Sequence record: OQ446694.1
Strand: one strand, 5' to 3'
Origin: Escherichia phage Killian
DNA length: 64,000 nucleotides
Position numbers and translations under genes: made by a program. Of the stretch, positions 31,695-39,493 are shown piece by piece; position 1 is the stretch's first letter, and each line of letters starts with the position of its first letter. Below the pieces are notes generated by a model. It was given only the letters and a program-made list of their open reading frames with translations. It did no database searches and had not been told where the DNA came from.

Positions 31695-33791
31695 TTATCC
31701 TTGAATGAACTTGTAAGGCATGTTTGCAATATCTATGCAAGATGCAATAATTCCAAGAGATGATTCTACTTTTTGTTTAACATTTGATGAAACAAATGAT
31801 GCAAAGTCAACTCTGTCTTCTATTTCAATATCACCTGCCATTGCAACTACTTCACCAGTTTCCATTAGACGGTCACCGTCATAAATTACTGATTCAGTGA
31901 GTTCTTCCGTAGTCATAACTTCAGCTTGAATGAGTTTTGTATTATTAGATGTTGTTCCGTCATTATTAGAAGCATCAGTTATTTTATTAACTTTGACCAT
32001 CAATCCGCGTGGTAGAATAACTTCAGCTTCTGTTGCTATTCCGAGGCTTCCTGGATATACAACATTAACTTTATGAGCTCCATCAATTGCCCATCCTATT
32101 TGAACTTTAACGTATTCGGGATTTTCTTTATACGCTCTTATTTCGTTTGAATTAATAGTTATTCCTTCTTCATTTTTATCAACTGTCAATTCATTACGAG
32201 CTTCTGGTTCTAAAAGACCAATACCAGCATGTGTAATTCCAAAACGTCCAAAAATGATAGGAGTTAAAGAAGTAGATACAAAATTTCTGAAATAGAACAC
32301 TTTATTTTTAACTAGTGCTTCGTATATAGGAGCAGTCATGCTTTGAGCACGATAAACTGTAATGCCTTCTGGTATACGGTCACCATTTTCAAAGGCTGAA
32401 TCTAAATTATTTATCGCAGATTCAATTTCTTTTTCACTCATTACCTCATATCGTTCTGGATTGTAGCGACCTAAAAGAAGATTATTGATGTCAGTATATC
32501 CTGAACCACAATACTCTCTAATGCCGCGCTTTTGTGATGGAGTATATTTAGAACCATCACGAGCAATAGTAATATCAATCATTGGACCTGCACCAATTCC
32601 AGAAAAACTATAAATCATTCTTTTGAGGAATTTAGTTTTTGCTGCGTTCCAGGAATTTTTAGTTATTTCTTCCCAGACTTCATCTGGCTGTCCTTTACGG
32701 GTTTTATTATGTTTATCAAGCCAATTATCTTTATATTCTTCAAATAATTGATTAACAGCTGCTGCGTATTTCTCTAAACATTTTATTGAAGTAGTTGGTT
32801 CATTTTTAATCGCATTAAGAATTACATCTTTAATTTTTTCAGAAACTTCATTAACCTCACTTTTTGAAAAGAATTTATAGTCATAATGAAGTTCATCTGC
32901 AGTTCCTTCAGCAATAATTTTTGCTGCCTTAGTTTTAGAAGCTAATGAATTAATTCCAAGCTTCATTTCTTCCGCTTCGGGAATTAAAGGAGCGGTAGCA
33001 GGTTTATTGAAATTAGCTGCGGTAGATTCATACTTCTGGAATAATTCACTTTCAAATCTAGAAGATTCTAATGACTGACTTTGCGCAATTGCTCTACGGG
33101 AAATTTTAACTTTAACGATTACAGCTTGGTCAGAACGTTTATCATTTTCTTGTGCAATAGATGCTGCAATTGCCTCATTTTTAGTTACTTGAGCTCCAGT
33201 ATCTTTATTGATATAAACATCACCGACTTTCGATTCAACTTTAGTAAAGAGCTCGGTACTAATTTCTGGAACTCCTGGAATGTCTTCTAATGATACATTT
33301 TTGCGATGTATAAGAATATATGCGTACTTTTTATCGTAATCCCAGAGTTCCTTAAGAAGGACGTATCTGCCACCTGAACGACTGCGGATAAGTCTATCAG
33401 CAATAAGTTGAATTTGTCGAGCTTGACCAGCAGTTTTAGACTTAAGAATACGGAGCATGCAGGCATCAATTTTATACTGACGCATCGTTTGCATTGCAAC
33501 TGTAAAAACTGAATTGATATAATTAATTGGGCTTGGACCGAGACCTTTTAATTTAGCAATTGAACCTTTAGCAGTTAATGTAAAAGGAACAATATGCATC
33601 ATTTTATCGCCCATCTTTAAATCGCGATTAGTATCACCTCCAGATGTATAGGTACATAAACGAAAGCCTGGTTGTTCAATTGCGTCATCAACGTGAACTG
33701 AAAAAATTTGCGGTATTTTCTTCTTTGGATTTAAGTTTGTAATCGGAAGAGTAGTATCTTCGTCAAATAATTCTGTAATGAGTTCCATCAT
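31695..33791 (-). CDS. Alt-like ADP-ribosyltransferase, paralog 2
   Basis: 698 aa; same N-terminal MELITELFD and C-terminal motifs YRAQ, FVSTSL, EAEVILPRG; central region divergent from paralog 1; start may be the second Met (33788). Confidence 0.85.
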   Translation of the reverse strand: MMELITELFDEDTTLPITNLNPKKKIPQIFSVHVDDAIEQPGFRLCTYTSGGDTNRDLKMGDKMMHIVPFTLTAKGSIAKLKGLGPSPINYINSVFTVAMQTMRQYKIDACMLRILKSKTAGQARQIQLIADRLIRSRSGGRYVLLKELWDYDKKYAYILIHRKNVSLEDIPGVPEISTELFTKVESKVGDVYINKDTGAQVTKNEAIAASIAQENDKRSDQAVIVKVKISRRAIAQSQSLESSRFESELFQKYESTAANFNKPATAPLIPEAEEMKLGINSLASKTKAAKIIAEGTADELHYDYKFFSKSEVNEVSEKIKDVILNAIKNEPTTSIKCLEKYAAAVNQLFEEYKDNWLDKHNKTRKGQPDEVWEEITKNSWNAAKTKFLKRMIYSFSGIGAGPMIDITIARDGSKYTPSQKRGIREYCGSGYTDINNLLLGRYNPERYEVMSEKEIESAINNLDSAFENGDRIPEGITVYRAQSMTAPIYEALVKNKVFYFRNFVSTSLTPIIFGRFGITHAGIGLLEPEARNELTVDKNEEGITINSNEIRAYKENPEYVKVQIGWAIDGAHKVNVVYPGSLGIATEAEVILPRGLMVKVNKITDASNNDGTTSNNTKLIQAEVMTTEELTESVIYDGDRLMETGEVVAMAGDIEIEDRVDFASFVSSNVKQKVESSLGIIASCIDIANMPYKFIQG

Positions 33792-33811
33792 ATCCTCTCT
33801 AGTGTTTATTC

Positions 33812-33819
33812 TATTTATA
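33812..33819 (-). promoter_or_regulatory. Late promoter TATAAATA (minus strand) upstream of the alt paralog pair
   Basis: Plus-strand TATTTATA, about 20 nt upstream of the ATG at 33791. Confidence 0.5.
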
Positions 33820-33825
33820 AAATTA

Positions 33826-33843
33826 AAGGCCCGAAGGCCTTTA
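33826..33843 (-). terminator. Hairpin AAAGGCC-CGAA-GGCCTTT between the 62-aa ORF and alt
   Basis: Perfect palindromic stem with tetraloop. Confidence 0.4.
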
Positions 33844-34029
33844 ATAATCTATTGGTAAGAGAGTACGATATATTTCAAACTTTGGGCCTTTTTCATAGGC
33901 ATCAAATGTTTCTGTGAATTTATTATAAGCATATGCATCTATAAATTCAATCATAATTTGTGATACAGAAGTAGAAACATCTCCACCTTCTTTTTGAGCC
34001 ACGACAATTGTTTCTAAGTAAGCTTTCAT
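33841..34029 (-). CDS. Hypothetical small protein between ligase and alt
   Basis: 62-aa ORF whose start overlaps the ligase stop. Confidence 0.5.
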   Translation of the reverse strand: MKAYLETIVVAQKEGGDVSTSVSQIMIEFIDAYAYNKFTETFDAYEKGPKFEIYRTLLPIDY

Positions 34030-35486
34030 AGACCAGTTACCTCATGAAAATCACCAAATACATCCTCGAATGTATTAGCTTTAGTTTTATCTTCACGCAA
34101 ACGAATCGCAATCGGAAGAAATAATTTAACGTAATCAGTGCGGCCATCAGATTTTAACCAACCATTACATTCGCACTCTAGAATTTTTCCAATATAATAA
34201 TTTTGGTTTTCCATAATGCGAGTACGGTCAAGTTCATGCGATTTTACACCGGCTTTATCTTTTAAGCCTGAACCAGCATTTACTTTAATTTTTCCACATT
34301 CTGATTCAAGAATAAATCCACCCGCTTTAGTAGGGTCTTTACGGTGAGGATAAATTCCTACAATTTTTAAATCAACATCAATTACTTCTTTAAATTTATA
34401 GAGATTTTTTGAACGAGCATTTTCCCATAATCCATCGATATTTTTGAGAATAATACCTTCAAGACCTTGGTCAATATACTTTTTATAAATTACCTTAGCT
34501 TCATCTAGGTTATTTACTATCTGGTTTTCAATTAAAATTACTTTATCATATCCTGATGTCATTTGTTCTAGTTTAGAAAAACGTACATCATATTTTAAAC
34601 GAAATGCTGGAAGACCGTATATTTCTACCAACGGGACATAATCCCAGACCTGAAACTTCATGCATTTGGCTTCTTTTTCTGAAATAGTTCCCTTTAAAGA
34701 TTTATTGGCGATTCCATTAGAAGCAGTACGCGATTCAGCTACTTCGGAAAACTCTTTAGCTTTACTGATTTCAGGAGCATCAAAAAGAAAATCTAGGCCT
34801 TCTGGCTCCTTTTCAACTTGCTCATGGTATACCAATTCGCCATCAATTAACACGCCTTCTGGATGAATCTGGCGAGCTTCAGCAGTCATTTTGATTAACT
34901 CTTCCTTAAGAAGATCTAATCCTAGATATTCATTACCAGCTCGTGATAAAAGACGAACATCATCTAATTCATCGCCTCGGACTTCAGCAAAACACCGAGC
35001 TCCATCTGCTTTTAACTGTGCAAAAGCTGGAAATTTGATATTCTTACTAATGCCTTTTTCATCATAAGAACTTGCCAGCATTTGAGGTTGTTCAGGAATT
35101 AAACCTGGCCAAACTTTATTTGCGATAGATACTGAAGCACCGCATTCAAGATCTCGCATCATAACTCGACGCAAAACTTCAACATCATCCTTTTTACCAT
35201 CAGTGATATATCCAGTTAATTCCTCAATTGCAGCATTTCCAGTCAATTTCCGAGTAGCTAACGTGAATTCAATGAAGTCAAGCATATCGGTAATAGTCAG
35301 CATTCCAAAACTCTGGGTAGCAATACCAGGTTTAGGCCATTTCTTGATATAATACTGTAACCCACGAGAATAAGTCAGACGATATACTCGTTTAAGCAAT
35401 TCATTATCTTTATTCTTTTCAAGAATTGCTTGCTTCTGCTTAGTTGATCCAATAGATGCTATTTCATTCAGAATTTTAAGAATCAT
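34026..35486 (-). CDS. 30: ATP-dependent DNA ligase gp30
   Basis: 486 aa (T4 ligase 487 aa); adenylation-site lysine motif KADGAR. Confidence 0.95.
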   Translation of the reverse strand: MILKILNEIASIGSTKQKQAILEKNKDNELLKRVYRLTYSRGLQYYIKKWPKPGIATQSFGMLTITDMLDFIEFTLATRKLTGNAAIEELTGYITDGKKDDVEVLRRVMMRDLECGASVSIANKVWPGLIPEQPQMLASSYDEKGISKNIKFPAFAQLKADGARCFAEVRGDELDDVRLLSRAGNEYLGLDLLKEELIKMTAEARQIHPEGVLIDGELVYHEQVEKEPEGLDFLFDAPEISKAKEFSEVAESRTASNGIANKSLKGTISEKEAKCMKFQVWDYVPLVEIYGLPAFRLKYDVRFSKLEQMTSGYDKVILIENQIVNNLDEAKVIYKKYIDQGLEGIILKNIDGLWENARSKNLYKFKEVIDVDLKIVGIYPHRKDPTKAGGFILESECGKIKVNAGSGLKDKAGVKSHELDRTRIMENQNYYIGKILECECNGWLKSDGRTDYVKLFLPIAIRLREDKTKANTFEDVFGDFHEVTGL

Positions 35487-35752
35487 TGCTCATCCTTCAA
35501 GGTTTGGTTTACAGCTCTATTATAAATCAATTCATCATTAAGCTCAGGCAAAGACCTATGATATGTAGTTCTAACTTTATTTCCTTGCATCCAGTGCTTA
35601 ACGTAAATGAAACCTTGCTCTACACATTTTTTAAAAATTCGTTCGTCTTTTTGAGCTCGGAATTTTGGATTACATCTAAAAAATTGATTTACGTGACCGT
35701 AATCACGTGTAGTATTACCTTCATTTTCATAAATAGTGTGAACGACAAACAT
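35483..35752 (-). CDS. Hypothetical protein (30.1 position)
   Basis: 89-aa ORF, start overlaps ligase. Confidence 0.55.
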   Translation of the reverse strand: MFVVHTIYENEGNTTRDYGHVNQFFRCNPKFRAQKDERIFKKCVEQGFIYVKHWMQGNKVRTTYHRSLPELNDELIYNRAVNQTLKDEQ

Positions 35753-36591
35753 TAGAATGCTCCTTGGAAAATATTATCACCGCTAGTAGGTCTATTATAC
35801 AAATACTCTATGCCACCAGGTTTAATATAGTTCCATGTCTGAAATGGATGTGTCTGATATGGATGATATAGATGATTATAAGGATTAAATCCAGGCGTTC
35901 TCCAGGTAGTGTTCCAAGGAAAAGAATCGTTTTTAACCATCTTCTCAATTAAATCTTTTACAGCTTTTTCACTATCAAAACTTTCTTTATTTTCCTTCGG
36001 CGAAAAAAGCTTATTTTCTACATCATTCCATGTATAAACTCGCTGAGCAGTTTTTGGAATATTGTCACGCTCTCCTCGAGCCATCCAATAAACAGGAACA
36101 TTTAATATTTCACTCGCATGATCGCAGTGATGAGCGAGATCGTCAATATAACAAATTACGTTATATTTCTCTTTTGCCTTTTTAAACAACTCTTCTTTTG
36201 AAGAATCATGACCACACATCATTACTTCTGAGAAGGCACCAGGAAAAAGAGCATTCAAATTAAATTGACGATTCAACAGAGCGTCAATAGAATCACCCAA
36301 TGCTGTGACAGCTACAAAATTATAATCTTCTTTTAATTTGTTAATTACACACAGTGCATCTTTATATGGAGACAAGTAACGAATAAAATCTGATCGATTA
36401 TATTTTTCAATTAGCTTGACACCGAGTTCTTCATCACAATTAAAGAGTTTACCTGGAGAAATAAATTTCTCATCTTGGATCATTTTTAAAATATGTTCTA
36501 ACGGAAGATTATATTTCTGAGCAAAATAAGGAAGACCTGATTGCCAGCTTAAACATACTCCATCAATATCAGTTAAAATAGTAGGCTTCAT
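35752..36591 (-). CDS. HAD-superfamily phosphatase-like protein (30.2 position)
   Basis: 279 aa; N-terminal ILTDIDGV (HAD motif I, DxDG) and later YIDD motif. Confidence 0.65.
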   Translation of the reverse strand: MKPTILTDIDGVCLSWQSGLPYFAQKYNLPLEHILKMIQDEKFISPGKLFNCDEELGVKLIEKYNRSDFIRYLSPYKDALCVINKLKEDYNFVAVTALGDSIDALLNRQFNLNALFPGAFSEVMMCGHDSSKEELFKKAKEKYNVICYIDDLAHHCDHASEILNVPVYWMARGERDNIPKTAQRVYTWNDVENKLFSPKENKESFDSEKAVKDLIEKMVKNDSFPWNTTWRTPGFNPYNHLYHPYQTHPFQTWNYIKPGGIEYLYNRPTSGDNIFQGAF

Positions 36592-37052
36592 AGAGAGTCT
36601 CTTAATAGGTTTAACACATCAATAAATTCAGCTTCGGTTAGTATTGTATCATCTTTTGTTAGACCACTAGCCATGCTGTGCTTCAAAACTTTTCCTTTCG
36701 AGGCTTGTAATGCATCACGAAAGCCCCTGTTTTGGAACGCTGCTTCAAAATATGCATTTGTGTATAATTCTTTCCACGCTGGAGAGTATCTTGAAAACTG
36801 AACTCCAAGCCAGAAGAGGGTCCCACGGTCCTGAGCTCTAGCATAAGCTCGTCCAGCTTGTTGGGCGGCAAGCCCGGATAACCCAAATATACGATGTTGC
36901 TGTTCAACATTTTTCACCTTGCATCCTTGGAGGAATCCTTCGAGACCTCCAAATTGGATACCATCCATAACAAAAGGCCATTGGGCGAAATTACTTAATG
37001 CACATGATGGCCATCTAAAATTGCTTCTAATCTCTAACTCAGACATTTTCAA
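36588..37052 (-). CDS. NADAR / YbiA-family protein (30.3 position)
   Basis: 154 aa; LSNFAQWPFVMDG...EGFLQGCK parallels the E. coli YbiA signature FSNFAAWPIKVDG...EHYFQAQK. Confidence 0.7.
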   Translation of the reverse strand: MKMSELEIRSNFRWPSCALSNFAQWPFVMDGIQFGGLEGFLQGCKVKNVEQQHRIFGLSGLAAQQAGRAYARAQDRGTLFWLGVQFSRYSPAWKELYTNAYFEAAFQNRGFRDALQASKGKVLKHSMASGLTKDDTILTEAEFIDVLNLLRDSL

Positions 37053-37254
37053 TACTTATAATTTCAACATCAGCCCAATGACCGTAACTTGGTAAACGGT
37101 CTTCAATAGATAATCCGCCATCATATTTAAGCATTTTAATTGTCATAATATATGGCTCTAAATGGTCTTCAGTGAGCGGAGAGACATCAGTCACACGATA
37201 AGTAACTTCGACCATTTCCGTGCCCAGTAATTTCTTGATTAATTTCTTAAACAT
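37039..37254 (-). CDS. Hypothetical protein (30.4 position)
   Basis: 71-aa ORF in the operon. Confidence 0.5.
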   Translation of the reverse strand: MFKKLIKKLLGTEMVEVTYRVTDVSPLTEDHLEPYIMTIKMLKYDGGLSIEDRLPSYGHWADVEIISIENV

Positions 37255-37258
37255 TTTA

Positions 37259-37546
37259 TTAGAACCTCATCTGAAAACCGTGCGATTTAACACTACCGCC
37301 GCCAATATCAGAAATATTAATTTCACGCGCAATTGAAGGGTCAATGTCAATTTCACGATTGAGTTTAGTGATAGCTAAAGTATCGCGGCCATTTACAGTA
37401 CGGAACTCTAAAGGGCAGACTACATTAACATAGTTTTTAATCGATTCACTGGTAGGTTGCAAATGAGCAGGAAGGTCTTTAGGCGCCTTAGAGAAAACCA
37501 CTTCACAGAAATTTTTGCGGGTATCAAAATAAGTAGTCATAAACAT
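37259..37546 (-). CDS. Hypothetical protein (30.5 position)
   Basis: 95-aa ORF. Confidence 0.5.
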   Translation of the reverse strand: MFMTTYFDTRKNFCEVVFSKAPKDLPAHLQPTSESIKNYVNVVCPLEFRTVNGRDTLAITKLNREIDIDPSIAREINISDIGGGSVKSHGFQMRF

Positions 37547-37587
37547 AGTATTTTCCTCAGTAAGGGGCCGAAGCCCCTCATTTTATT

Positions 37588-37953
37588 TTAAATATCAAAT
37601 TCGTTAAGAACTACATCAAAGATTGCTTCAAGATGCTCAGGTTTAGCTCTGTTACTCAGAATATGACGAATCCAAGTTTTAACCAGAAGCTTGCGATTAA
37701 CACCATTCCAGCAAGGATGAGTCCCTAAATCGCGTTGACGAAAATCATCATCCAAAGCGATTTTGAAGTTGGAACCTTCCATTGTGATTGAAACCGTGAT
37801 GCCATTTTCAAATCGCATATAAACGTAGTTAGGAGTCATATACTGTTCAATTTCGCATACTGATCCATTTTGATGTTTCCAAAGGCAAATAGTATCAATA
37901 GAACCTGCAATACCATTAGAAACATATTTACGTTCAAAGTTGATGTAGTTCAT
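37588..37953 (-). CDS. Hypothetical protein (30.7-like)
   Basis: 121-aa ORF. Confidence 0.5.
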   Translation of the reverse strand: MNYINFERKYVSNGIAGSIDTICLWKHQNGSVCEIEQYMTPNYVYMRFENGITVSITMEGSNFKIALDDDFRQRDLGTHPCWNGVNRKLLVKTWIRHILSNRAKPEHLEAIFDVVLNEFDI

Positions 37954-38021
37954 TTTTATTCTCCGAGCTGTTTAATTGCGGTACAGGTATATAATATCAT
38001 ATCCTGTACCAAAGTAAACAA

Positions 38022-38354
38022 TTATTTTACTACTTTCCAGTGCTGCATGTCAAGTTTACCAACTTTTTTCATCTTCTCAATTAAGCGTTCGGCGCGTTGG
38101 CGAGCTGTAACATAATACCATTCACCCAATTCATTTTGTTCAATTTTTCCAACGATTACTGTATTCAATTCATAAATCCAACCAGTAAAGAAATTATGAA
38201 CTTGAATTGTAAAGGTGAAATCTGTTCCCATACCTTCTGTTGTTTCTACTTCAATAATATCACCTTCAACTGCCATTAAGAACCACATAGTTTCATCATA
38301 TTTACCATTGAAGCATTTAGTTTTAACTGCAGCGTTCAGATTAATCGTTTTCAT
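38022..38354 (-). CDS. Hypothetical protein (30.8-like)
   Basis: 110-aa ORF. Confidence 0.5.
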   Translation of the reverse strand: MKTINLNAAVKTKCFNGKYDETMWFLMAVEGDIIEVETTEGMGTDFTFTIQVHNFFTGWIYELNTVIVGKIEQNELGEWYYVTARQRAERLIEKMKKVGKLDMQHWKVVK

Positions 38355-38430
38355 TTTATTCTCCTTTGTTTGTGTAAGATAATACTATCACAAAGGAACC
38401 ATACTGTAAACAACTTTGTGCAGTCTTTGG

Positions 38431-38460
38431 AAAATAAAAAAGGACTCCCGAAGGAGTCCT
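38431..38460 (-). terminator. Rho-independent terminator AGGACTCC-CGAA-GGAGTCCT plus U-tract after the small basic protein gene
   Basis: 8-bp stem; plus-strand AAAATAAAAA gives a U-run after the hairpin on the minus-strand transcript. Confidence 0.65.
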
Positions 38461-38464
38461 CAAC

Positions 38465-38641
38465 TTATGCTTTCTGCTTACCAAAACGAGAAGCATCATC
38501 TCGAAGAACCGCACGTGCTCGGCGCATGATCTTCTCAACAGTTTGATTGATACGAGAGTTCGACCCACGCTTGTAACCAGCGCGTTTAGAATCACCAACT
38601 TTCTTTTCAACTGCTTTCTTTGCTTTAGCTTGTTTTGCCAT
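38465..38641 (-). CDS. Small highly basic protein (30.9 position)
   Basis: 58 aa from the internal ATG (MAKQAKAKK...), K/R-rich; the longer track start at 38683 would run through the rIII-distal hairpin. Confidence 0.55.
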   Translation of the reverse strand: MAKQAKAKKAVEKKVGDSKRAGYKRGSNSRINQTVEKIMRRARAVLRDDASRFGKQKA

Positions 38642-38761
38642 TATAAATTCTCTTTTAAATGAAAATGCAGGACTTATTGGCATTGCCTGCGCAAGCCCTC
38701 AAGGGGAACATAGGTTTTTGAATATTTAACGACCAGGATAACCATAAACCCGTCATCATAC

Positions 38762-39010
38762 TTACTTCAGTGTTACCACAAAATGACGAACTGCTTTTCG
38801 TGCAGCAGAAGCCAGTGGCTTAGCATATTTAAGTTCATCTTTTTCCTGAAGCTCAGCAGCTAATGCAGTTTGAGCAGGATTTAGATGTTTGAAATAACGC
38901 AGGATTTCAAGAGCTTCGGCTTCAACATCAATAGATGCGCCATAGTTTTCGTGACCATTATTCCATGCGTTTCGTTGCAGTTCAAGAGCGTGTTGTAATT
39001 GTTTAATCAT
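38762..39010 (-). CDS. rIII: Lysis-inhibition accessory protein rIII
   Basis: 82 aa (T4 rIII is 82 aa), directly downstream of gene 31 on the minus strand. Confidence 0.75.
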   Translation of the reverse strand: MIKQLQHALELQRNAWNNGHENYGASIDVEAEALEILRYFKHLNPAQTALAAELQEKDELKYAKPLASAARKAVRHFVVTLK

Positions 39011-39157
39011 TTAAAAATTCTCGTTAGAGATTAAAACTCGGTAGTCACGTTCTTCTGAATTTCATCTTCTTTCGACAGATCTCTCAGTTGTAGACTACCA
39101 CATAGAATTGTTCGGTTAACTTATTATTCCGACACCCAATTCATATTATTATTTATA

Positions 39158-39493
39158 TCACTTATAAAGACACGGAATAGCTTTATAGTGACAGGTAACG
39201 AATTTTTGTTTAATTTCTTTTGGCTGCTTAAGACCCAGAGCTACAAAAGGATGCGGAACGTTTCGAATTTGACCAACTGGAAGAGAAGTCAAATCACCAA
39301 CTTCACAGAAACCTTCAGGAACATCAGGACCAACAGAGTGAACTACACACAGTTCAGGAACTTCACCTTGAACACGTTTACCGATAATAAGTCCTGATTC
39401 TGTAACTTCTTCATCACCGGCTTGTGCAGGTTCAGAAACTAAAATAACATATTCACCGACAGCACGAATTGGTAGCTGTTGTACTTCAGACAT
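39158..39493 (-). CDS. 31: Co-chaperonin gp31 (GroES analogue)
   Basis: 111 aa, same as T4 gp31; synteny with rIII and cd. Confidence 0.9.

What the first reader, a model, noticed from the sequence alone, without database searches (positions are those of the whole stretch)
35752..37052. NADAR/YbiA-family protein adjacent to a HAD-type phosphatase next to DNA ligase: candidate ADP-ribose or nucleotide-processing pair
The 154-aa ORF has the YbiA/NADAR signature (LSNFAQWPFVMDG...EGFLQGCK against E. coli YbiA FSNFAAWPIKVDG...EHYFQAQK). Its start overlaps the stop of a 279-aa ORF with HAD motifs (ILTDIDGV, YIDD) and an unusual aromatic-rich C-terminal extension. NADAR domains are associated with ADP-ribose processing, including reported reversal of DNA ADP-ribosylation by DarT-type toxins. 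A pair like this could protect phage DNA or nucleotide pools from host ADP-ribosylating defenses. The function here is inference only.
Basis: partly seen in the sequence, partly recalled or inferred. Interest (0 to 1): 0.55.

Follow-up and report, generated by a model that had tools for sequence, protein, structure and literature searches.

The report
Known anti-DarT enzyme AdfN plus phosphatase
The small gene is the T4-type phage enzyme AdfN (gp30.3), already shown by others to strip ADP-ribose off phage DNA and defeat the bacterial DarTG1 defence, and its downstream neighbour is an uncharacterised nucleotidase-like phosphatase that published genetics shows is not needed for that job.

Summary
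The window is a T4-like (Tequatrovirus) phage. The two ORFs are genes 30.3 and 30.2 of the alt–30–30.x early cluster, on the minus strand. Gene 30.3 (36588–37046) is 96% identical to T4 gp30.3. Its model matches only the three solved NADAR structures. It keeps E36, K43, the phage-type His123 and the C-terminal helix. This protein is already published as AdfN, a DNA ADP-ribosylglycohydrolase that reverses DarT1 guanine ADP-ribosylation (Nat Commun 2025; Toxins 2024).

Gene 30.2 (35752–36591) is a genuine HAD phosphatase with all four motifs and a helical cap. It is closest to 5'(3')-deoxyribonucleotidases (NT5C), and it has a disordered aromatic tail that ends in a conserved GIEYLxxxPT motif. 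Its substrate is unknown.

The "functional pair" reading is not supported:
- Transposon data for T4 show 30.3 is essential under DarTG1 (log2FC −7.25), whereas 30.2 is neutral (−0.12).
- Across T4-like phages, 30.2 stays next to DNA ligase (69 of 74 loci) far more often than next to the NADAR (35 of 72 loci).

Low interest. The main feature is already known, and only the role of gp30.2 remains open.

The parts
36588..37046 (-). [quoted passage not shown] The ORF listing TTG start at 37052 would add two residues.
   Evidence: Pfam PF08010 at E=9.7e-68. It is 96.1% identical to T4 gp30.3. The AlphaFold model has pLDDT 82. Its only significant PDB fold matches are YbiA 2b3w, G. lovleyi NADAR 8bat and P. 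nicotianae NADAR 8bau. The function is published for the T4 orthologue.
36939..36941 (-). Codon GAA for the catalytic Glu36 of AdfN (E38 in the TTG-start numbering).
   Evidence: The sequence was read. The residue is invariant in alignment A1 and aligns with the Glu of the YbiA EHYFQ motif. An E36A mutant of T4 AdfN was catalytically inactive on ADP-ribosylated DNA in vitro and rescued RB69 under DarTG1 only partially (PMC11825919).
36918..36920 (-). Codon AAG for the catalytic Lys43 of AdfN.
   Evidence: The sequence was read. The residue is invariant in A1. A K43A mutant of T4 AdfN gives only partial rescue.
36678..36680 (-). Codon CAC for His123 in the last beta-strand (LKHS). This is the residue that distinguishes phage NADARs from YbiA (Glu) and from DarG1/BC4488 (Asp).
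   Evidence: The residue is invariant in A1 (H125 in TTG numbering). The model places a strand at 122-125. The subfamily rule comes from PMC11125620 and PMC12945103.
36588..36591 (-). ATGA overlap, where the stop codon of 30.3 overlaps the start codon of 30.2. This arrangement is consistent with co-transcription and translational coupling.
   Evidence: Sequence read.
37039..37046 (-). An 8-nt overlap (ATGTCTGA) between the end of 30.4 and the start of 30.3.
   Evidence: Sequence read. Transposon insertions in T4 30.4 give a partial DarTG1 phenotype (log2FC -1.79, adjusted p 0.014), which is consistent with a polar effect on adfN.
35992..36591 (-). Gene 30.2, residues 1-200. This is the HAD-superfamily phosphatase core with a helical C1 cap, and it is NT5C-like. 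Motif codons are D8 36568-36570, D10 36562-36564, T96 36304-36306, K132 36196-36198 and D150/D151 36139-36144.
35755..35991 (-). Gene 30.2, residues 201-279. This is a variable, aromatic- and proline-rich C-terminal tail that is largely predicted to be disordered.
   Evidence: pLDDT is 40-60 over most of this region, apart from one helix at 207-220. The tail is absent or unalignable in many homologues.
35785..35814 (-). Conserved short motif GIEYLYNRPT near the C-terminus of gp30.2.
   Evidence: The motif G(T)G[IL]EY[LWY]xx[QR]PT is present in 16 of 100 gp30.2 cluster representatives, despite otherwise unalignable tails. It occurs only once in the six-frame translation of the window.
35483..35752 (-). 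Gene 30.1 (DUF3045), between 30.2 and the ligase. Context only.
   Evidence: Pfam PF11243 at E=7.5e-63. 96.6% identical to T4 gp30.1.
34026..35486 (-). Gene 30, the ATP-dependent DNA ligase. It is the conserved downstream neighbour of the 30.2 family.
   Evidence: Pfam PF01068 at E=3.9e-32. 98% identical to the T4 ligase. The ligase lies downstream of 30.2 in 69 of 74 loci.
31695..33791 (-). Gene alt, the packaged ADP-ribosyltransferase. Context only; it belongs to the same early gene cluster.
   Evidence: Pfam PF03496 at E=3.2e-37. T4 annotation.

Best explanation
These are two adjacent, co-transcribed early genes of a T4-like phage, and they have separate functions.

**Gene 30.3 (adfN).** It encodes a minimal NADAR-fold ADP-ribosylglycohydrolase. 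When a host DarT1 toxin ADP-ribosylates guanines in replicating phage DNA, AdfN hydrolyses the N-glycosidic bond between ADP-ribose and guanine, using Glu36, Lys43 and His123. It releases ADP-ribose and restores replicable DNA, so the phage escapes DarTG1 abortive defence. This is shown experimentally for the 96%-identical T4 protein and is inferred by orthology for this allele.

**Gene 30.2.** It encodes a Mg2+-dependent HAD phosphatase with Asp8 as nucleophile and Asp10 as general acid/base. It has a helical cap of the type that encloses small substrates, and its nearest relatives are 5'(3')-deoxyribonucleotidases. Most likely it dephosphorylates a nucleoside monophosphate or a similar small phosphoester, as an accessory to phage DNA and nucleotide metabolism. 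That inference rests on its conserved position just upstream of DNA ligase. It is dispensable in the laboratory and is not part of the DarTG1 counter-defence. Its substrate and its physiological role are both inferences.
For: **Identity of the locus.** The region is 99.3% identical to Escherichia phage UGKSEcP2 and collinear with T4 alt-30-30.1-30.2-30.3.

**AdfN.**
- Pfam Phage_30_3 at E=1e-67.
- The profile's top PDB hit is YbiA, aligned across the catalytic motif.
- The model's only confident fold matches are the three NADAR structures, at probability 0.99-1.00.
- E36, K43 and H123 are invariant, and the C-terminal helix that is lost in the DarTG1-sensitive phage RB69 is intact here.
- Published work covers genetics, mutants and in vitro de-ADP-ribosylation (PMC11825919), in vitro guanine-ADPr hydrolysis (PMC11125620; PMC12945103), and an independent transposon screen giving log2FC -7.25 under DarTG1.

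**gp30.2.**
- Residues of all four HAD motifs are invariant (D8, D10, K132) or nearly invariant (T96, D150, D151) across 37 homologues.
- The core is modelled with high confidence, with a helical insertion between strands 1 and 2.
- The only PDB sequence hit of the family profile is cdN, aligning DGVLxxWxSGL with DGVLADFESGL.
- 21 of 53 remote relatives hit Pfam NT5C, with hhalign probability 100% between the two sets.
- Some depositors already label homologues as 5' nucleotidase, phosphatase or HAD hydrolase.

**Separate functions.**
- 30.2 is neutral under DarTG1 and in the LB versus M9 comparison, and it is non-essential.
- Synteny with the ligase holds in 69 of 74 loci, against 35 of 72 for the NADAR.
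- Even a 34%-identical homologue sits near a ligase with no NADAR beside it.
Against: - The window's own AdfN allele has not been assayed. It carries six substitutions relative to T4, including Gln at a position that is Pro in most close homologues.
- gp30.2 itself does not reach any Pfam or NCBIfam threshold. The NT5C link is transitive and borderline: E=0.023 against cdN.
- A dNMP phosphatase seems counter-productive for a phage that salvages host dNMPs. No phenotype is known that would reveal its role.
- Tight ATGA coupling to adfN in Tequatroviruses leaves room for a conditional functional link that was not probed by the published screen.
Confidence: 0.8

Rival explanations
1. The two proteins form a functional pair. 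Under this reading gp30.2 works with AdfN in one of two ways. Either it is the unidentified T-even-specific factor that AdfN(T4) seems to need for full activity, or it processes the released ADP-ribose or a phosphorylated derivative of it.
For: The stop and start codons overlap in an ATGA arrangement. The two genes are adjacent in 21 of 72 related loci, and both genes are present genome-wide in about 1,440-1,510 phage records with similar host ranges. Johannesman et al. report that AdfN(T4) cannot neutralise DarT1 in uninfected cells and only weakly rescues T5 and Bas25. They suggest that an additional T-even protein may be required.
Against: In T4 HIDEN-SEQ under DarTG1, insertions at 71 sites in 30.2 are neutral (log2FC -0.12, p 0.61), while 30.3 is lost (-7.25). 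In about half of the related loci the NADAR is not within 5-6 kb upstream of 30.2, whereas the ligase is almost always downstream. In phage EcS1, for example, the two genes are about 55 kb apart. ADP-ribose has no phosphomonoester for a HAD phosphatase to remove.
Confidence: 0.06
2. gp30.2 is a DNA-end 3'-phosphatase. It would clean nicks for the neighbouring DNA ligase, in the way the HAD phosphatase domain of polynucleotide kinase/phosphatase does.
For: Synteny with DNA ligase is strongly conserved (69 of 74 loci, 65 of them within 600 nt). There are weak profile matches to phage polynucleotide kinase (phrog_415 at E=0.0023; E=0.0005 for a relative). One remote relative hits Pfam HAD_PNKP. 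One relative is fused to a DNA-polymerase-like PHROG.
Against: The model has a roughly 70-residue helical cap between motifs I and II. From general knowledge of the HAD superfamily, such caps typify small-molecule HADs, whereas polynucleotide phosphatases are capless. NT5C matches are far more frequent among relatives than PNKP matches (21 against 1 of 53). T4-like phages already encode PseT, which has 3'-phosphatase activity.
Confidence: 0.1
3. AdfN's main physiological substrates in this phage are something other than DarT1-modified DNA. Candidates are soluble ADP-ribose derivatives used in host immune signalling, ADP-ribosylated RNA, or by-products of the phage's own ADP-ribosyltransferases (Alt, ModA, ModB). 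Under this reading anti-DarT1 activity is only one facet.
For: The gene lies in the same early cluster as alt. Iyer et al. [quoted passage not shown] NADARs, including the T4 enzyme, also hydrolyse guanine-ADPr on RNA in vitro. The family is near-universal in T4-like phages, whatever their host.
Against: The only demonstrated phenotype is DarTG1-specific. adfN is neutral on K-12 without DarTG1 and in minimal medium. No activity on thymine-ADPr was found.
Confidence: 0.12

Closest known systems
T4 AdfN (gp30.3), anti-DarT factor NADAR (Johannesman et al., Nat Commun 2025, PMC11825919)
   Same: This is the orthologue. It has 146 of 152 identical residues, the same genomic position between 30.4 and 30.2, the same E36, K43 and H123, and a full-length C-terminal helix.
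   Different: There are six substitutions: R51H, S67A, P83Q, I104F, K107R and I125M (T4 to window). None is at a known catalytic position. This allele has not been tested.
DarG1 antitoxin NADAR (for example Geobacter lovleyi, PDB 8bat) of DarT1-NADAR toxin-antitoxin systems
   Same: It shares the fold (Foldseek probability 0.99) and the same reaction, removal of ADP-ribose from guanine in DNA.
   Different: The phage protein is an orphan with no cognate toxin. It consists of the core domain only, and it has His instead of Asp in the last strand. The T4 protein cannot replace DarG1 in uninfected cells.
E. coli YbiA (PDB 2b3w), a YbiA-type NADAR
   Same: It is the best fold match (E=1.8e-4, TM 0.60) and the best sequence-profile match. 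The xSNFAxWP...E.[FY][FL]Q..K motif is shared.
   Different: Identity is about 20%. YbiA has Glu where the phage family has His. YbiA is linked to detoxification of riboflavin intermediates and to a LexA-controlled operon, not to phage counter-defence.
5'(3')-deoxyribonucleotidases cdN and mdN, and the bacterial NT5C family (Pfam PF06941; PDB 2jao, 2i7d, 1q92, 3bwv)
   Same: gp30.2 shares the capped HAD fold, the DxD nucleophile motif followed by an aromatic residue eight positions after the first Asp (W16 against F18 of cdN), and the S-G-L motif. These are its best structural and profile matches.
   Different: gp30.2 itself does not reach the Pfam NT5C threshold. Identity is 16-21%. It carries a roughly 80-residue disordered aromatic tail that NT5C enzymes lack. 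Its substrate is unknown.
Bacillus phage PBS1 Dtm, a dTMP phosphatase (PF06941 family; PMC12697855)
   Same: It is a precedent for a phage-encoded NT5C-family nucleotidase that reshapes the dNMP pool in a phage with non-canonical DNA.
   Different: The phage, its DNA chemistry (dU-DNA) and its context are all different. No direct comparison was made here, and nothing shows that gp30.2 acts on dTMP.

Membership tests
NADAR superfamily (phage gp30.3 / AdfN subfamily) | The YbiA/NADAR alpha+beta fold, with core helices flanked by small beta-hairpins. | tested here: met
   The AlphaFold model has pLDDT 82 and pTM 0.81. The three top Foldseek PDB hits are the three NADAR structures 2b3w, 8bat and 8bau (probability 0.99-1.00, TM 0.53-0.60). 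The next hit has probability 0.06.
NADAR superfamily (phage gp30.3 / AdfN subfamily) | The conserved catalytic Glu and Lys (E36 and K43 in T4 AdfN). | tested here: met
   Both residues are present and invariant in the family alignment. They align with the Glu and Lys of YbiA EHYFQAQK.
NADAR superfamily (phage gp30.3 / AdfN subfamily) | His in the last beta-strand. This is the subfamily marker; YbiA has Glu and DarG1/BC4488 has Asp. | tested here: met
   His123 in LKHS is invariant in A1 and lies in the predicted strand 122-125. The rule comes from PMC11125620.
NADAR superfamily (phage gp30.3 / AdfN subfamily) | An intact C-terminal helix, which is truncated in the DarTG1-sensitive RB69 allele. 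| tested here: met
   The protein is full length at 152 aa, with helix 140-153 predicted. Its C-terminal 27 residues are identical to those of T4.
NADAR superfamily (phage gp30.3 / AdfN subfamily) | Hydrolysis of guanine-N2-ADP-ribose on DNA, and protection from DarTG1. | not testable with these tools
   This is shown for the 96%-identical T4 protein in the literature. It is inferred here by orthology.
HAD superfamily phosphatases | Motif I, hhhDxDx[TV], with the nucleophile Asp and the Asp+2 general acid/base. | tested here: met
   ILTDIDGV is present, and D8 and D10 are invariant in 37 homologues and in 53 remote relatives.
HAD superfamily phosphatases | Motif II (Ser/Thr), motif III (Lys) and motif IV (DD). 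| tested here: met
   T96 is nearly invariant (Ser in a few homologues) and K132 is invariant. D150 and D151 are nearly invariant, and the exceptions are truncated sequences.
HAD superfamily phosphatases | The Rossmannoid HAD core fold. | tested here: met
NT5C / 5'(3')-deoxyribonucleotidase family (Pfam PF06941) | A match to the family profile above the curated threshold. | tested here: not met
   gp30.2 gives no Pfam hit at E<=0.1 and no NCBIfam hit. The link is only transitive. 21 of 53 remote relatives match NT5C, with a best E of 4e-10, and those relatives align with the gp30.2 family at hhalign probability 100%.
NT5C / 5'(3')-deoxyribonucleotidase family (Pfam PF06941) | Closest structural and sequence similarity to solved deoxyribonucleotidases, including the base-stacking aromatic residue after motif I. 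| tested here: inconclusive
NT5C / 5'(3')-deoxyribonucleotidase family (Pfam PF06941) | dNMP phosphatase activity. | not testable with these tools
   No biochemical data on gp30.2 were found. A full-text search for gp30.2 returned 0 papers.
Polynucleotide 3'-phosphatase (PNKP/PseT HAD domain) | A capless (C0) HAD core that gives access to polynucleotide ends. | tested here: not met
   The model shows a helical insertion of about 70 residues (helices between residues 16 and 86) between the first and second core strands. Only weak PHROG matches to polynucleotide kinase were found.

The most novel reading that the evidence does not exclude
gp30.2 may be more than a generic housekeeping nucleotidase. 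It could be a ligase-linked accessory enzyme that is recruited to a partner through its conserved C-terminal GIEYLxxxPT peptide. Candidate partners are the replisome, the dNTP-synthetase complex and DNA ligase. Its job could be to remove a specific small phosphorylated product: for example a non-canonical or defence-derived nucleotide, or a by-product of nick sealing. That would be a new conditionally important function in T4-like phages, one that becomes visible only on hosts carrying an as yet untested defence or stress.
Probability: 0.1. Interest if true: 0.45.

Novelty: already known. Interest (0 to 1): 0.15.

Why it matters
The NADAR gene matters because it is a working example of a phage that has captured an antitoxin-like enzyme to undo DNA ADP-ribosylation by a host defence. 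That story is already published for T4, and this window simply carries another allele of it.

The useful result here is negative. The attractive idea that the neighbouring phosphatase is AdfN's partner does not hold, either in published transposon genetics or in comparative synteny. This also removes 30.2 as a candidate for the unidentified T-even factor that AdfN(T4) appears to need.

What remains open, at a modest level, is the role of gp30.2. It is a conserved but dispensable NT5C-like phosphatase found beside DNA ligase in well over a thousand T4-like phage genomes, and no substrate has been assigned to it.

Tried and rejected
- **Direct family scans.** The NADAR protein matches only the phage-specific Pfam family, not the general NADAR family. 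gp30.2 has no Pfam or NCBIfam hit at all. Single-sequence phmmer against the PDB found nothing for either protein. Profiles, structure prediction and transitive searches were needed instead.
- **Word-indexed homologue search for gp30.3.** It reached only 22 close relatives. It could not bridge to cellular NADARs by sequence.
- **Promoter and terminator scan of 33700-39200.** It found no more sites than shuffled sequence does (22 against 19.1; 4 against 2.9). It therefore says nothing about operon structure.
- **Hidden NADAR next to a distant gp30.2 homologue.** The 139-aa gene overlapping the start of a 34%-identical homologue (L079) has no Pfam match.
- **Domain fusions of gp30.2 relatives as clues to function.** Only one informative case was found, a DNA-polymerase-like PHROG fused N-terminally in P0172. 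A single case is too thin to use.
- **gp30.2 as AdfN cofactor, or as a handler of ADP-ribose.** Rejected on the HIDEN-SEQ data and on synteny.
- **A growth-medium phenotype for 30.2.** None was seen in LB against M9.
- **Literature on gp30.2.** The search returned 0 papers.
Full report
**What the window is.** The 1.9-kb region around the finding is 99.3% identical to Escherichia phage UGKSEcP2. It matches 688 T4-like phage records. Gene order and protein identities place it in the T4 early cluster alt – alt.1 – 30 (DNA ligase) – 30.1 – 30.2 – 30.3 – 30.4 – 30.6 – 30.7 – 30.8, all on the minus strand. The 154-aa ORF is gene 30.3 and the 279-aa ORF is gene 30.2.

**Checking the observation.**
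- Gene 30.3 hits Pfam PF08010 (Phage_30_3) at E=9.7e-68.
- The YbiA-like motif is reproduced by a profile alignment of the family to PDB 2b3w. LSNFAkWPFVMDG…EGFLQG.K aligns with FSNFAAWPIKVDG…EHYFQAQK, and 2b3w is the top hit at E=0.055.
- Gene 30.2 carries ILTDIDGV and YIDD. In a 37-sequence alignment of homologues, D8, D10 and K132 are invariant, and T96, D150 and D151 are nearly invariant. These are HAD motifs I to IV.

Three details need correcting:
- 30.3 is the upstream gene. Its TGA stop overlaps the ATG of 30.2 (ctATGAag, 36588–36591), not the other way round.
- The likely start of 30.3 is the ATG at 37046, giving 152 aa as annotated in T4 and overlapping the 30.4 stop by 8 nt. It is probably not the TTG at 37052.
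- Gene 30.1 lies between 30.2 and the ligase.

**Gene 30.3 is AdfN, and this is already published.** The protein is 96.1% identical (146 of 152 residues) to T4 gp30.3. An AlphaFold model (pLDDT 82, pTM 0.81) matches three PDB entries with confidence, and these are the three NADAR structures:
- E. coli YbiA 2b3w (E=1.8e-4, TM 0.60);
- Geobacter lovleyi NADAR 8bat;
- Phytophthora NADAR 8bau.

The next hit has probability 0.06.

Glu36, Lys43 and the phage-subfamily His123 in the last strand are present and invariant in the family. The C-terminal helix is intact.

The literature supports the function at several levels:
- Johannesman et al. (Nat Commun 2025, PMC11825919) mapped DarTG1 resistance of T-even phages to 30.3 and renamed it adfN.
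- The same paper showed that E36A and K43A mutants, and the RB69-type C-terminal truncation, impair it.
- It also showed that the purified protein removes ADP-ribose from DarT1-modified DNA.
- In vitro guanine-ADPr hydrolysis by T4 gp30.3 was reported in Toxins 2024 (PMC11125620) and again in 2026 (PMC12945103).
- An independent transposon screen (HIDEN-SEQ preprint 10.1101/2025.11.20.689424) found that 30.3 insertions were lost under DarTG1.
- The family had been flagged bioinformatically as a phage NADAR before that.

**Gene 30.2 is a HAD phosphatase closest to deoxyribonucleotidases.** The protein itself has no Pfam or NCBIfam hit. In PHROGs it hits only phrog_420, a family of unknown function. 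Several other lines of evidence define it:
- The model is very confident over residues 1–190 (pLDDT above 90). It shows a Rossmannoid core with a helical insertion of about 70 residues after the first strand. Residues ~200–279 are mostly disordered.
- Foldseek finds 102 PDB matches at E≤1e-3, and all of the 50 listed are HAD-fold structures. The best TM and rmsd values are for cytosolic and mitochondrial 5'(3')-deoxyribonucleotidases and for 3bwv.
- The family profile's only PDB sequence hit is mouse cdN (E=0.023). The alignment pairs DGVLxxWxSGL with DGVLADFESGL.
- An exhaustive profile search found 1,453 relatives. Of 53 remote ones, 21 match Pfam NT5C (best E 4e-10) and 13 match the generic HAD family. 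This set aligns with the gp30.2 family at hhalign probability 100% over 199 columns.

The DxD motif and the cap point to a small-molecule phosphatase, most plausibly a nucleoside monophosphatase. The substrate cannot be read from sequence. A phage precedent for an NT5C-family nucleotidase is the PBS1 dTMP phosphatase (PMC12697855). I found no paper mentioning gp30.2.

**Are the two genes a functional pair?** The evidence says no, at least for DarTG1.

First, the genetics. In the HIDEN-SEQ resampling table for control against DarTG1:

| T4 gene | Transposon sites | log2FC | Significance |
|---|---|---|---|
| 30.3 | 28 | −7.25 | adjusted p 0 |
| 30.2 | 71 | −0.12 | p 0.61 |
| 30.4 | 21 | −1.79 | adjusted p 0.014 |

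The effect on 30.4 is plausibly polar on adfN. Gene 30.2 is also non-essential on K-12, with 72 of 72 sites hit. It is neutral in LB against M9 as well.

Second, the synteny. I fetched 77 loci encoding gp30.2 relatives from viral contigs and scanned their flanks.
- A DNA ligase lies downstream on the same strand in 69 of 74 loci with enough flank, and within 600 nt in 65 of them.
- A gp30.3-type NADAR lies upstream in 35 of 72 loci and is adjacent in only 21.
- Both families occur in about 1,440–1,510 phage records with the same host spectrum. They are both near-core genes of T4-like phages, but they are often far apart. In phage EcS1, for example, they are about 55 kb apart.
- A 34%-identical homologue still sits two small genes from a ligase. 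It has endonuclease VII, PhoH and UvsY nearby and no recognisable NADAR.

The conserved partner of 30.2 is therefore the ligase and DNA-metabolism neighbourhood, not AdfN.

This also bears on an open point in the AdfN paper. AdfN(T4) works fully only in T-even infections, and the authors suggest another T-even protein may be required. On the transposon data, 30.2 is a poor candidate for that factor.

**Mechanism, and how much of it is shown.**
- For AdfN, the chemistry and the phenotype are shown for the T4 orthologue. The chemistry is hydrolysis of the guanine–ADP-ribose bond on DNA, releasing ADP-ribose. The phenotype is escape from DarTG1. Both are inferred here by 96% identity and conserved catalytic residues.
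- For gp30.2, the catalytic machinery and fold are shown computationally. This is an Asp8 phospho-enzyme mechanism that, from general knowledge of HAD phosphatases, depends on Mg2+.
- The nucleotide-monophosphate substrate class is an inference from the nearest relatives.
- A role in DNA and nucleotide metabolism is an inference from synteny.
- Rivals are a 3'-phosphatase that helps the ligase, and a conditional link to ADP-ribose metabolism. These are less likely and are listed with their tests.

**Verdict.** The main feature is an already characterised anti-defence enzyme. The HAD assignment is correct but describes an ordinary-looking accessory phosphatase. The proposed pairing is not supported. 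Interest is low. The only open thread is what gp30.2 and its conserved C-terminal peptide do.

Noticed in passing
window 35785-35814 (minus strand), gp30.2 residues 260-269: The otherwise hypervariable, disordered C-terminal tail of gp30.2 ends in a short conserved peptide, G(T)G[IL]EY[LWY]xx[QR]PT. It is found in 16 of 100 cluster representatives whose cores are only 47-98% identical to the window protein. It looks like a docking motif, but the partner is unknown.
   Followed up: partly
window 36683-36910 (minus strand), ORF 30.3' inside 30.3: T4 annotates an internal out-of-frame ORF, 30.3' (75 aa). Between this window and T4, the 30.3 frame shows 12 synonymous and 7 non-synonymous differences. 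Within its span, the 30.3' frame shows 1 synonymous and 11 non-synonymous. So 30.3' shows no sign of purifying selection and may not be a real gene.
   Followed up: partly
window 37039-37258: T4 gene 30.5 (65 aa) is absent here. A single 71-aa gene 30.4 fills the gap between 30.3 and 30.6. It is only 52% identical to T4 gp30.4 overall, but its C-terminal 18 residues are nearly identical (LP[SC]YGHWADVEIISIENV). That end overlaps the adfN start region.
   Followed up: partly
T4 gene 30.4 (published data); window equivalent 37039-37254: In the HIDEN-SEQ DarTG1 screen, 30.4 insertions are significantly depleted (log2FC -1.79, adjusted p 0.014). This is probably a polar effect on the overlapping adfN, but a genuine contribution from gp30.4 is not excluded.
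   Followed up: no
window 36798-36800 (AdfN residue 83): The window's AdfN has Gln at a position that is Pro in T4 and in six of the nine aligned homologues (G-x-P-F-S-R). The residue lies at the start of a predicted beta-strand. Its functional effect has not been tested.
   Followed up: no
window 37563-37578, intergenic region between 30.7 and 30.6: A perfect GC-rich hairpin, AGGGGC-CGAA-GCCCCT, sits in the only sizeable intergenic gap of the cluster. The scan flagged it as terminator-like on the plus strand. It may instead be an RNA structure or a processing site on the minus-strand transcript.
   Followed up: no
protein P0172 (591 aa, metagenomic relative of gp30.2): One remote relative carries the gp30.2-like HAD domain at residues 385-586, fused to an N-terminal region that matches a PHROG annotated as DNA polymerase (phrog_24943, E=1.7e-34). 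It is a single case and could be a gene-calling fusion.
   Followed up: no
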